Assembly: GCA_051546255.1 (NCBI GenBank)
Contig: CP128815.1
Span: forward strand, 1,612,001-1,676,000
Source of the DNA: Meyerozyma guilliermondii
Lineage: Eukaryota
DNA length: 64,000 nucleotides
Reading direction: 5' to 3'
The notes under the pieces are model-generated. The model searched no databases. It was given only the letters and a program-made list of their open reading frames with translations, and had not been told where the DNA came from. The number at the start of each line of letters is the position of its first letter. Position 1 is the stretch's first letter. Below, in pieces: positions 36,746 to 37,555 of this stretch. The position numbers and the translations under genes are program-made.

Positions 36746-37555
36746 ATGAAAACCATGTATGCTATATGGTATATACTTAGCTTCGCAATTGTCATAGGCT
36801 TTGCTCAATCTCTTATCATTGAATATGAAGGCACGCATAACATATTTAACGCTAAATTTGTCAATGTTGATCTAGAATTGTTAAACAATACTGATGCCAA
36901 TTACACATACAACGGCTACAAAGTGCTTTATACTAATAAGATGTTTTTACTGGTGGGCTTAGACGATAGTATAATGCCGTCAAATGACAAACGAGAAATC
37001 ACAAAAGATACCAGAGAGGAATGGACCAACGTTATTCAATTGGGACCTAATTTTGTGAAATCTTTATCAAATGTTTCTTATGCCGATGTGATTTCTGAAC
37101 CTATTACTGATTATGAGGTAGCAATTTCTGGGTTACATATCACTGAACGCTATCGGAACATTGATCTGAGCGATCTCAACGTTGGGTCCACTTTTAACAA
37201 TATAGTGAAAAGTTTTGGTTCCGCTGCTGATGCACTTGCGTCTTCAATTTACGGGTATGAGACTCCCAAGGAGTGTGGAATGTACACCACACAGCATGGT
37301 GATACCTGGTTTCAAATTCATACGTGTACCACTGGACGCGATTGTGATGCTATATCAAGCCTCAAAATTGTTGAAGAAGCTGTTGAAGAAGCTGTTGCTC
37401 ATGCTCATGCTCTAGCTGATGAATATCCTCACAAGTCATACCGGGGCTCATTTACCATGAACCATGGAGGTACTTGGGACAGTTGCGTCGAATATTATCA
37501 GAAAGATTACCATGAGAAGTCGTTTCCTGGATGTCCCCCTGAATGGTGTAATTAA
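36746..37555 (+). CDS. Secreted killer-toxin-like preproprotein, copy B (paralog of copy A)
   Basis: Same architecture and same 6 Cys (TTGRDCDAIS...HGGTWDSC...GCPPEWC). NDKR is retained; the second KR has become EP. TATA (gatataaag) at about 36662. Confidence 0.75.
   Translation: MKTMYAIWYILSFAIVIGFAQSLIIEYEGTHNIFNAKFVNVDLELLNNTDANYTYNGYKVLYTNKMFLLVGLDDSIMPSNDKREITKDTREEWTNVIQLGPNFVKSLSNVSYADVISEPITDYEVAISGLHITERYRNIDLSDLNVGSTFNNIVKSFGSAADALASSIYGYETPKECGMYTTQHGDTWFQIHTCTTGRDCDAISSLKIVEEAVEEAVAHAHALADEYPHKSYRGSFTMNHGGTWDSCVEYYQKDYHEKSFPGCPPEWCN

What the first reader, a model, noticed from the sequence alone, without database searches (positions are those of the whole stretch)
37081..37420. 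Copy B has lost a Kex2 site and the hydrophobic helix and is more acidic: candidate immunity/decoy partner
Seen in sequence: copy A has TCT AAA CGT (S-K-R; KR at 35171-35176), while copy B has TCT GAA CCT (S-E-P; EP at 37097-37102). The apolar segment IVIGSVTAAGAAALAILKF of A becomes IVKSFGSAADALASSIYGY in B. Several positions shift to acidic residues (HGAT>HGDT, NCD>DCD, VKE>VEE, WHS>WDS, AKW>PEW), yet all 6 Cys and HGGTW are kept and the ORF is intact. Established knowledge: K1 and K28 immunity is conferred by the unprocessed precursor. Inference: B could be a processing-defective, disarmed paralog protecting against A, or a toxin with a different target range.
Basis: partly seen in the sequence, partly recalled or inferred. 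Interest (0 to 1): 0.8.

Follow-up and report, generated by a model that had tools for sequence, protein, structure and literature searches.

The report
Uncleavable acidic paralog of killer-toxin-like gene
Two neighbouring yeast genes encode related secreted proteins of a family that includes known yeast killer toxins; the second copy belongs to a conserved class that lacks the usual cutting site and is more acidic, but whether it protects against the first copy is untested.

Summary
Copy A (34820-35590) has KR at 35171-35176; copy B (36746-37555) has EP at 37097-37102. A's uniformly apolar helix is an amphipathic one in B. B's folded domain is acidic (pI 4.9 against 7.3). All 6 Cys and HGGTW are kept.

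Both copies pass Pfam's cut-off for DUF6736, which UniRef calls the 'CSS2 C-terminal domain'. A profile comparison (98%) links them to proteins published as homologs of Ksino, an experimentally active killer toxin related to Klus. The domain model is a five-strand, two-helix sandwich. Its best fold neighbours are DUF26/ginkbilobin-2, fungal lectins and KP4, with modest scores.

B is not a decaying copy. In all 12 B-body sequences recovered, the junction KR is absent, a 7-residue insertion is present and the helix is amphipathic. This segment forms its own clade (100/97), while the pro-region is mixed between A and B. A and B proteins share the same longest-contig length in 6 cases.

Two points weaken the 'disarmed' reading. 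An amphipathic helix 1 is usual in this family, including in the active toxin Klus. B also keeps an upstream KR.

Protection by B is untested. I put it at about 0.25, and a separately functioning secreted paralog at about 0.45.

The parts
34820..35590 (+). Copy A: 256-aa secreted precursor (type A). The start is taken at the ATG that places the hydrophobic signal segment at the N-terminus; public gene calls use an upstream ATG at 34724 (288 aa).
   Evidence: Pfam DUF6736 E 9e-09, 35.9 bits against a cut-off of 27
34820..34876 (+). A: predicted signal peptide, residues 1-19
   Evidence: Kyte-Doolittle 19-residue mean 1.94 at residues 4-22. Heuristic only; no dedicated signal-peptide predictor was run.
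35054..35059 (+). A: upstream dibasic KR (residues 79-80), also present in B
   Evidence: Absent in 3 of the 20 full-length relatives listed (P0005, P0006, P0012).
35171..35176 (+). A: junction dibasic KR (residues 118-119), a candidate Kex2 site just before the folded domain
   Evidence: Present in 6 of 6 A-type and 2 of 2 type-C sequences.
35249..35305 (+). A: uniformly apolar part of helix 1 (residues 144-162)
   Evidence: KD 1.94; mean hydrophobicity 0.62 with moment 0.19; helix at domain residues 23-47 in the model
35228..35554 (+). A: DUF6736 / CSS2 C-terminal type alpha/beta-sandwich domain (Pfam match, residues 137-245)
36746..37555 (+). Copy B: 269-aa secreted precursor (type B); an alternative start at 36755 gives 266 aa
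   Evidence: Pfam DUF6736 E 1.4e-07, 32.1 bits against a cut-off of 27
37097..37102 (+). B: E-P where A has the junction K-R
   Evidence: No junction dibasic in 12 of 12 sequences with a B-type body.
37154..37174 (+). B: 7-residue insertion between strand 1 and helix 1, specific to type B
   Evidence: alignments
37202..37258 (+). B: amphipathic counterpart of A's apolar helix
   Evidence: KD 0.68; mean hydrophobicity 0.24 with moment 0.50
37369..37412 (+). B: perfect 12-nt (2.4 copies) and 6-nt (2.8 copies) tandem repeats that lengthen helix 2 by 6 residues and add acidic residues
   Evidence: Found in 4 of the 12 B-body sequences.
37175..37507 (+). B: DUF6736 domain (Pfam match, residues 144-254)
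33983..34353 (.). Upstream non-coding block of unit A, 74% identical to 36033-36403. The tandem duplication therefore includes upstream DNA.
   Evidence: indels are not multiples of three
36033..36403 (.). Upstream non-coding block of unit B

Best explanation
A and B are an old tandem pair of paralogs of the Klus/Ksino killer-toxin family (Pfam DUF6736, the 'CSS2 C-terminal domain') on an ordinary chromosome of a Meyerozyma-type yeast.

A has the family's protoxin layout. It has a signal peptide, a conserved pro-region of about 100 residues, and a KR just before a disulfide-bonded sandwich of five strands and two helices. Its helix 1 is unusually apolar.

B is a functional member of a distinct, conserved class. 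It is secreted and folds the same way, but it cannot be cut by a Kex2-type protease at the junction. Its linker, and perhaps its pro-region, therefore stays attached. Its helix 1 is amphipathic, as in most of the family, and its surface is acidic.

I think B most likely acts on its own as a differently matured secreted protein, either a toxin or binding protein with another target or another pH and charge optimum, rather than as a dedicated antidote to A.

Shown: family membership, the anatomy, and conservation of the B class. Inferred: secretion, Kex2 cleavage, toxicity of either copy, and B's role.
For: Family. Both copies pass Pfam's cut-off for DUF6736. The nearest relative outside the genus, P0014 from Suhomyces tanzawaensis, is named 'Secreted protein CSS2 C-terminal domain-containing protein' by UniRef. 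P0055 (KAH6887094.1) and P0058 (KAJ7436857.1) carry DUF6736 and are listed as Ksino homologs in Table S11 of PMC12875307. hhalign of the Meyerozyma profile against a profile containing these two gives 98% probability, E 2.9e-13. Ksino killed Candida castellii when expressed in S. cerevisiae (PMC12875307, passage).

Fold. The domain model has pLDDT 77.4 and pTM 0.74, with the order strand-helix-strand-strand-helix-strand-strand. This matches the published description of Ksino. The top six rows of the second look are PDLP8 (Z 6.4), LDL lectin (6.1), Y3 (5.8), ginkbilobin-2 (5.5), PDLP5 (5.3) and Zt-KP4 (4.8); the next row is 3.9. The Klus/KHR paper names the same protein groups.

B is functional. 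Its frame is intact and it keeps 6 Cys. All 12 of 12 B-body sequences share the same junction, insertion and helix. The B clade in residues 101-169 has support 100/97. That segment is more conserved in B than in A between the same putative genome pairs: 93% against 72%, and 84% against 78%. Overall dN/dS between A and B is 0.54, and 0.13 in the pro-region.

Own activity is plausible. An amphipathic helix 1 is the family norm and is reported for the active toxin Klus. The window's B keeps the CD and HGGTW motifs. The core, residues 170-256, diverges quickly in both types.
Against: Neither A nor B has been shown to be toxic, and the family also includes CSS2, a secreted protein of unknown function.

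The two features that define B, loss of the maturation site and loss of the apolar helix, are what a disarmed copy would show. In 8 of the 12 B-body sequences HGGTW reads HDDTW, although this motif is invariant in 17 of 17 filamentous-fungus sequences. The apparent linkage with A and the charge difference (A's domain pI 7.3, B's 4.9) fit a binding partner as well.

Fold scores are all below Z 8 and could reflect only a common arrangement. The 12 B-body sequences are close relatives with only three junction variants, so they are not independent.
Confidence: 0.45

Rival explanations
1. Immunity or decoy partner. B is a disarmed paralog that neutralises A. It could do so by binding A in the secretory pathway, or by occupying A's receptor on the cell wall or membrane. 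It would stay harmless because it is not matured at the junction and lacks the apolar helix.
For: The B-specific changes sit at the maturation site and at helix 1. The B class is old and kept distinct there, while the pro-region is mixed between neighbours: A and B are interleaved in the tree of residues 20-100, and the window's A and B are 93% identical in that stretch. A and B proteins share the same longest-contig length in 6 cases. Acid gains exceed losses in both B sub-lineages (13 to 4 and 9 to 3) but not in type C (5 to 5). Recombinant genes with A's 5' end on a B body exist (P0078, P0079, P0081) and could be antidote-only haplotypes. There is a precedent for an unprocessed precursor giving K28 immunity (PMC13442484, passage).
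Against: Nothing here tests protection or binding. B carries a signal peptide and no membrane anchor. Published Ksino was expressed in S. cerevisiae without any partner gene. In K1 and K28, immunity lies in the toxin's own ORF. In the named records of Meyerozyma sp. JA9 only an A-type (JA9_001439) and a type-C protein (JA9_004546) were recovered, with no B-type; this is weak evidence because that annotation is incomplete. The amphipathic helix is not in itself a sign of disarmament.
Confidence: 0.25
2. Neither copy is a killer toxin. Both are CSS2-like secreted proteins, for example cell-wall or carbohydrate-binding proteins, and the A/B differences reflect ordinary divergence after duplication.
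For: The family name comes from CSS2, a secreted S. cerevisiae protein of unknown function. The best fold neighbours include lectins and carbohydrate-binding DUF26 domains. No toxicity data exist for any Meyerozyma member. A search for DUF6736 in the paper library found 0 papers, and none of the 20 papers listed for 'Meyerozyma' plus 'killer toxin' points, by title or abstract start, to a gene of this family; I checked passages only in PMC11855519.
Against: Two family members, Klus and Ksino, are experimentally active toxins. A has the protoxin layout with a KR before helix 1, as described for Ksino. The rapid divergence of the core in both types is more typical of conflict proteins.
Confidence: 0.15
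3. Two-component arrangement. B is a co-subunit or secretion chaperone that pairs with A, shielding A's apolar helix until release, so the active agent is an A-B heteromer.
For: A's helix 1 is apolar on all faces and would need shielding. The domain charges differ. The genes are linked and share upstream sequence.
Against: There is no direct evidence. A's own pro-region could do the shielding, as proposed for Klus and KHR precursors (PMC13211469, passage).
Confidence: 0.1
4. B is a decaying duplicate with no function.
For: By outgroup comparison B is the more derived copy, at 18 positions against 7. It carries slippage-type repeats.
Against: The frame is intact and all Cys are kept. The class is conserved across relatives and monophyletic. 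Its defining segment is more conserved than A's. dN/dS is below 1.
Confidence: 0.03

Closest known systems
Ksino, the chromosomal killer toxin of Candida sinolaborantium (PMC12875307)
   Same: CTG-Ser yeast; chromosomal gene; signal peptide; KR in the unstructured stretch before helix 1; five-stranded antiparallel sheet with two helices; Cys-rich. Two of its published homologs (KAH6887094, KAJ7436857) carry DUF6736 and fall in the profile that matches the window's proteins at 98%.
   Different: I did not compare the Ksino sequence itself. Table S11 of that paper lists no Meyerozyma protein, and for Suhomyces tanzawaensis it lists XP_020062392, not our nearest relative XP_020066219. The window's proteins have a long, conserved N-terminal pro-region. 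Type B lacks the KR. No tandem A/B pair appears in the passages I read.
Klus (dsRNA M-lus satellite) and KHR (chromosomal) toxins of S. cerevisiae, with the Klus homolog CSS2/YFR020W; the 'Klus family' or KTN of PMC13211469
   Same: Related through the CSS2 C-terminal domain name and the published Klus-CSS2 and Klus-Ksino links. Same alpha/beta-sandwich neighbours: DUF26/Gnk2, KP4 and lectins. Dibasic sites define the domains. Helix 1 is central.
   Different: Klus and KHR have 3 to 4 predicted Kex2 sites and mature as alpha/beta heterodimers. A has two KR sites and B has one. I did not test sequence homology to Klus or KHR directly. Klus's helix 1 is amphipathic like B's, not apolar like A's.
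K28 and K1 precursor-mediated immunity
   Same: An unprocessed precursor form neutralises the mature toxin (PMC13442484, passage). B would be a permanently unprocessed form at the junction.
   Different: In K1 and K28 the immunity is encoded by the toxin's own ORF on a dsRNA satellite, in unrelated protein families. Here it would be a separate chromosomal paralog. Nothing was tested.
Alpha/beta-sandwich antifungal proteins and lectins: ginkbilobin-2/DUF26, LDL and Y3 lectins, KP4 and Zt-KP4
   Same: Best structural neighbours of the domain model: Z 6.4 to 4.8 with 89-101 aligned residues, and KP4 (1kpt) at Z 3.3.
   Different: There is no sequence match: Pfam gives no KP4 or DUF26 hit at E up to 1, and PDB sequence searches give 0 hits. 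All Z values are under 8.

Membership tests
Klus/Ksino killer-toxin family (Pfam DUF6736 = 'CSS2 C-terminal domain') | Match to the Pfam DUF6736 model above its gathering score | tested here: met
   A scores 35.9 bits and B 32.1 bits against a cut-off of 27
Klus/Ksino killer-toxin family (Pfam DUF6736 = 'CSS2 C-terminal domain') | Homology to proteins published as Ksino homologs | tested here: met
   hhalign of A1 against A5 gives 98% probability, E 2.9e-13. A5 contains KAH6887094.1 and KAJ7436857.1, both listed in Table S11 of PMC12875307. Ksino, Klus and KHR themselves were not compared.
Klus/Ksino killer-toxin family (Pfam DUF6736 = 'CSS2 C-terminal domain') | Conserved Cys before strand 2, and the C-D and G-G-T-W motifs | tested here: met
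   Present in both A and B. The motifs are invariant in 17 of 17 filamentous-fungus sequences. In 8 of 12 other B-body sequences the GG reads DD.
Klus/Ksino killer-toxin family (Pfam DUF6736 = 'CSS2 C-terminal domain') | Five-stranded antiparallel sheet packed against two helices | tested here: met
   Model of A's domain: pLDDT 77.4, pTM 0.74, five strands and two helices. B was not modelled on its own.
Klus/Ksino killer-toxin family (Pfam DUF6736 = 'CSS2 C-terminal domain') | N-terminal signal peptide and a dibasic site before helix 1 | tested here: inconclusive
   Both copies have a hydrophobic N-terminus (heuristic). A has KR at 118-119. B has none there and keeps only KR 79-80.
Klus/Ksino killer-toxin family (Pfam DUF6736 = 'CSS2 C-terminal domain') | Antifungal activity of the secreted protein | not testable with these tools
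Toxin with a dedicated immunity partner | The partner always accompanies the toxin gene | tested here: inconclusive
   A-type and B-type proteins share the same longest-contig length in 6 cases. No contig DNA could be fetched. Named records of strain JA9 gave A and C types but no B. The structure of the recombinant haplotypes is unknown.
Toxin with a dedicated immunity partner | The partner protects against the toxin | not testable with these tools
   This needs expression and challenge assays
K1/K28 precursor-type immunity | Immunity is encoded in the toxin's own unprocessed precursor | tested here: not met
   B is a separate gene about 1.9 kb downstream of A. The resemblance is by analogy only.
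KP4 family (Pfam PF09044) | Sequence match to the KP4 model | tested here: not met
   No KP4 hit at E up to 1. Fold similarity is weak: Zt-KP4 Z 4.8 and KP4 Z 3.3.
SMK toxin of Millerozyma farinosa | Sequence or fold match to the solved SMK toxin | tested here: inconclusive
   PDB sequence searches gave 0 hits. No SMK toxin row appeared among the rows shown.

The most novel reading that the evidence does not exclude
The B class is a paralog-derived antidote. On this reading, a chromosomal Klus/Ksino-type protoxin was duplicated, and one copy was fixed as an uncleavable, acidic, non-inserting form that neutralises the cleavable copy. Selection then keeps the junction and helix segment distinct, even though gene conversion mixes the rest of the two genes. 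This would be the first dedicated immunity gene for a chromosomally encoded yeast killer toxin. It would also be the first case of immunity arising by duplication of the toxin gene, rather than from the toxin's own precursor or from an unrelated protein.
Probability: 0.25. Interest if true: 0.75.

Novelty: new variant of a known kind. Interest (0 to 1): 0.5.

Why it matters
How yeasts protect themselves from their own chromosomally encoded killer toxins (KHR, KHS, Ksino, SMK toxin) is unresolved. The 2026 review passages I read call the Klus/KHR immunity mechanism possibly 'non-canonical' and SMK toxin immunity unclear.

This pair is a natural contrast. The two proteins share the same fold and pro-region but differ mainly in three features: a maturation site, the polarity of helix 1, and net charge. 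That makes three questions directly testable:
- Are junction cleavage and an apolar helix needed for toxicity in this family?
- Can an uncleavable paralog protect against the cleavable one?
- Why does gene conversion stop at this segment?

If B is simply a second toxin, the pair still adds an uncharacterised Meyerozyma branch, with types A, B and C, to a toxin family defined only in 2026. Meyerozyma yeasts are used for biocontrol.

Tried and rejected

- Whole-genome search: no genome is held for this window.
- PDB sequence searches with A alone and with the 23-sequence profile: 0 hits at E up to 10.
- Foldseek against PDB, with the full-length model and with the domain model: nothing at E 0.001 or below.
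- Foldseek against BFVD viral models: nothing at E 0.001 or below, and no Klus row. A Ustilago maydis virus P1 protein ranked 7 with probability 0.57.
- No SMK toxin row among the rows shown.
- The full-length model of A was poor outside the C-terminal core (mean pLDDT 55.5), so I say nothing about how the pro-region packs.
- Complex prediction of A's domain with B's domain: 'no answer', score 0.00, and the partner's own fold was uncertain. This is not evidence either way.
- Protein atlas: only DUF6736 clusters, at 0.85-0.86, below the 0.9 level.
- Earlier findings of this scan: nothing relevant.

**Literature**
- Search for 'DUF6736': 0 papers.
- 'Meyerozyma' plus 'killer toxin': 87 papers, of which 20 were listed; I judged these by title and abstract start only. 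I checked passages in one (PMC11855519) and found no toxin gene named.
- The single held supplement of PMC13211469 does not mention Meyerozyma. Its other supplements, with the 871 Klus-family homologs, were not available and may list these genes.

**Ideas rejected**
- A third copy in the window: tblastn finds only two.
- A conserved small ORF in the duplicated upstream block: its indels are not multiples of three.
- My recollection that KHR1 shares the motifs: from memory only, not used.
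Full report
**What is in the window**

Two ORFs lie in tandem on the + strand. Copy A runs 34820-35590, taking the ATG that puts the hydrophobic signal segment first. Copy B runs 36746-37555. They are 68% identical (182 of 268, E 1e-130). The duplicated unit is about 1.93-2.05 kb and includes a non-coding upstream block: 33983-34353 against 36033-36403, 74% identical, with indels that are not multiples of three. tblastn finds no third copy in the window.

The neighbouring genes are ordinary chromosomal ones: an amino-acid permease, a membrane RING ligase, a cation-efflux protein and a WD40 protein. 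A close hit is named Meyerozyma sp. JA9, so the host is probably a CTG-Ser yeast. Under table 12, two CTG codons in each gene read Ser.

**Checking the observation**

- KR lies at 35171-35176 in A and EP at 37097-37102 in B.
- The two 19-residue segments, the five acidic substitutions, the 6 Cys and HGGTW are all as quoted.
- Whole-protein pI is 6.04 against 4.73. For the domain after the junction it is 7.29 against 4.88.
- In that domain B gains 13 acidic residues and loses 4, and gains 3 basic residues and loses 6.

There are three corrections.
- Both copies keep an upstream KR at residues 79-80.
- The helix is converted, not lost. A's is uniformly apolar (mean hydrophobicity 0.62, moment 0.19). 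B's is amphipathic (0.24, moment 0.50).
- B's 6-residue insertion and part of its acidity come from perfect 12-nt and 6-nt tandem repeats at 37369-37412.

**What the family is**

Both proteins pass Pfam's gathering score for DUF6736: 35.9 and 32.1 bits against 27. A scan of 1.84 billion representatives with the Meyerozyma profile found only 15 proteins at E 0.001 or below. Of the 14 that were new, 7 pass the DUF6736 cut-off, 2 match below it and 5 do not match.

The nearest relative outside the genus is P0014 from Suhomyces tanzawaensis (XP_020066219.1, E 6.9e-47). It aligns over nearly the whole length, and UniRef names it 'Secreted protein CSS2 C-terminal domain-containing protein'. A second profile, built from the non-Meyerozyma hits, found 24 proteins. 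Among them, P0055 is KAH6887094.1 (Thelonectria olida) and P0058 is KAJ7436857.1 (Mycena latifolia). Both are listed as Ksino homologs in Table S11 of PMC12875307, a supplement I read in part. A profile-profile comparison of the Meyerozyma alignment with a 17-sequence alignment containing these two gives 98% probability and E 2.9e-13 over A residues 143-233.

In the passages I read, Ksino is a chromosomal toxin of the CTG-Ser yeast Candida sinolaborantium. It is related to Klus, has a KR before helix 1, is modelled as a five-stranded sheet with two helices, and is active against C. castellii when expressed in S. cerevisiae. Klus is reported to be homologous to CSS2/YFR020W, and KHR to Klus (PMC13211469, passages). 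I did not compare Ksino, Klus, KHR or CSS2 sequences directly.

**Fold**

The full-length model of A was confident only in the C-terminal core (mean pLDDT 55.5). The domain alone, with a 44-row alignment, gave pLDDT 77.4 and pTM 0.74. Its order is strand, helix 1 (which contains the apolar segment), two strands, helix 2, two strands.

Foldseek found nothing at E 0.001 or below. Its best rows were the Y3 lectin, ginkbilobin-2, PDLP8 and the LDL lectin. In the wide VIA-align search an unrelated tRNA synthetase ranked first at Z 6.5, followed by PDLP8 at 6.4, LDL 6.1, Y3 5.8, Gnk2 5.3, PDLP5 5.3 and Zt-KP4 4.3. In the second look the top six were all of this DUF26, lectin and KP4 group (Z 6.4 to 4.8). 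The next row was 3.9, and KP4 itself scored 3.3.

These scores are modest and could reflect a common arrangement. They are, however, the same neighbours that the 2026 paper reports for Klus and KHR models.

**Copy B belongs to a conserved class**

The close relatives fall into three types.

| Type | Sequences | Junction KR | Helix 1 (KD) | Domain pI | Other |
|---|---|---|---|---|---|
| A | 6 | present | apolar, 1.38-1.94 | 6.5-9.0 | |
| C | 2 | present | amphipathic, 0.85-0.94 | 6.5-7.2 | |
| B | 10, plus 2 recombinants with a B body | absent | amphipathic, 0.68-0.90 | 4.8-6.0 | 7-residue insertion |

All 12 of 12 B-body sequences lack the junction KR. They are close relatives with only three junction variants, so they are not independent. 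I left out two truncated sequences (P0079, P0082) and did not fetch most other cluster members (P0084-P0091 and P0095-P0097).

Trees by segment (15 rows) show a sharp contrast.
- In the pro-region, residues 20-100, A and B are interleaved. B is one group in 0% of bootstrap trees, and the window's A and B are sisters (83/85) at 93% identity.
- In the junction and helix segment, residues 101-169, B is one clade (100/97, and 100% of bootstrap trees) and is sister to type C (88/86).
- In the core, residues 170-256, B forms one group weakly (73/87) with two deep sub-lineages.

So the 5' part is mixed between neighbours, probably by gene conversion, while the junction and helix segment stays type-specific.

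Between the same putative genome pairs, that segment is more conserved in B than in A: 93% against 72%, and 84% against 78%. dN/dS between the window's A and B is 0.54 overall, 0.13 for residues 20-80, 0.83 for residues 81-119 and 0.63 for residues 120-256. By outgroup comparison B is the more derived copy, at 18 positions against 7.

A-type and B-type proteins share the same longest-contig length in 6 cases: 2089158, 1054146, 876246, 2095439, 44351 and 4049. This suggests, but does not prove, that they lie on the same contigs.

Recombinants with A's 5' end and signal peptide on a B body exist (P0078, P0079, P0081). I could not tell whether these strains lack A.

In the named records of strain JA9, an A-type and a type-C protein lie on different contigs, and no B-type was recovered. 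This is weak evidence, because that annotation is incomplete.

**How it most likely works**

Shown: the family, the anatomy, and conservation of the B class. Inferred: everything about secretion, cleavage and activity.

A looks like a protoxin that a Kex2-type protease would cut at KR 118-119, freeing a 137-residue sandwich domain whose helix 1 is apolar on all faces. B would fold the same way but could not be cut there. At most it would be cut at KR 79-80, so the linker stays attached.

B's amphipathic helix is not a defect in itself. It is the usual state in the family, and Klus's helix 1 is described as amphipathic and predicted to be pore-lining. I therefore favour B as an independently functioning secreted paralog with different maturation, charge and probably target (about 0.45).

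The immunity or decoy idea remains open (about 0.25). The features that define B are those expected of a disarmed copy. Acidification is specific to type B: 13 gains to 4 losses and 9 to 3 in its two sub-lineages, against 5 to 5 in type C. In 8 of 12 B-body sequences the otherwise invariant GG of HGGTW reads DD. The pair also seems linked.

The other readings and their weights are:
- Neither copy is a toxin, and both resemble CSS2 (0.15).
- B is a co-subunit or chaperone for A (0.10).
- B is decaying (0.03).

K28-type precursor immunity is an analogy only.

**Novelty**

The family is known and was named in 2026. In what I could search, nothing describes a Meyerozyma branch or a tandem pair of cleavable and uncleavable forms. 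The supplements that list the 871 Klus-family homologs were not available to me. I rate this a new variant of a known kind. It is moderately interesting as it stands, and clearly interesting if B proves protective.

Noticed in passing
window 37369-37412: Perfect tandem repeats inside copy B (12 nt x 2.4 and 6 nt x 2.8) encode a repeated V-E-E-A and an A-H-A-H-A stretch. They lengthen helix 2 by 6 residues. Only 4 of the 12 B-body sequences carry this (P0009, P0092, P0093, P0012).
   Followed up: partly
window 34724-34819: Public gene calls for copy A (P0003, 288 aa) start at an upstream ATG, which buries the signal segment 32 residues inside the protein. The shorter start at 34820 fits a secreted protein better. 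Some relatives are called from M74 (P0010, 183 aa). Automated annotation of this family therefore seems unreliable.
   Followed up: partly
proteins P0078, P0079, P0081 (not in the window): Recombinant genes in other assemblies join copy A's upstream extension and signal peptide to a B-type body, with the crossover between residues 17 and 53. This is either a deletion by unequal crossing-over or a conversion of A by B.
   Followed up: partly
proteins P0011, P0094 (Meyerozyma sp. JA9 JA9_004546; not in the window): A third paralog type (C) combines the junction KR with a B-like amphipathic helix, which itself contains a KR. In JA9 it lies on a different contig from the A-type gene. It shows that loss of the KR and the change of the helix are separable events.
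   Followed up: partly
protein P0085 (cluster of P0003): A 233-aa protein labelled Naganishia cerealis, a basidiomycete, sits in the 90%-identity cluster of copy A. This looks like contamination or mislabelling of a contig in that public assembly.
   Followed up: no
window 38074-38745: The ORF directly downstream of B encodes a 223-aa protein with an N-terminal signal-like segment, a long Ser/Gly-rich tract and a hydrophobic C-terminus. It has no Pfam match and looks like a GPI-anchored cell-wall protein.
   Followed up: partly
window 34877-35059 and 36812-36994 (residues 20-80 of A and B): The pro-region is the most constrained part of both genes (dN/dS 0.13). It is recognisably conserved in Suhomyces and other yeast relatives (P0014, P0020, P0021), so it is probably a functional domain and not a disposable propeptide.
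   Followed up: partly
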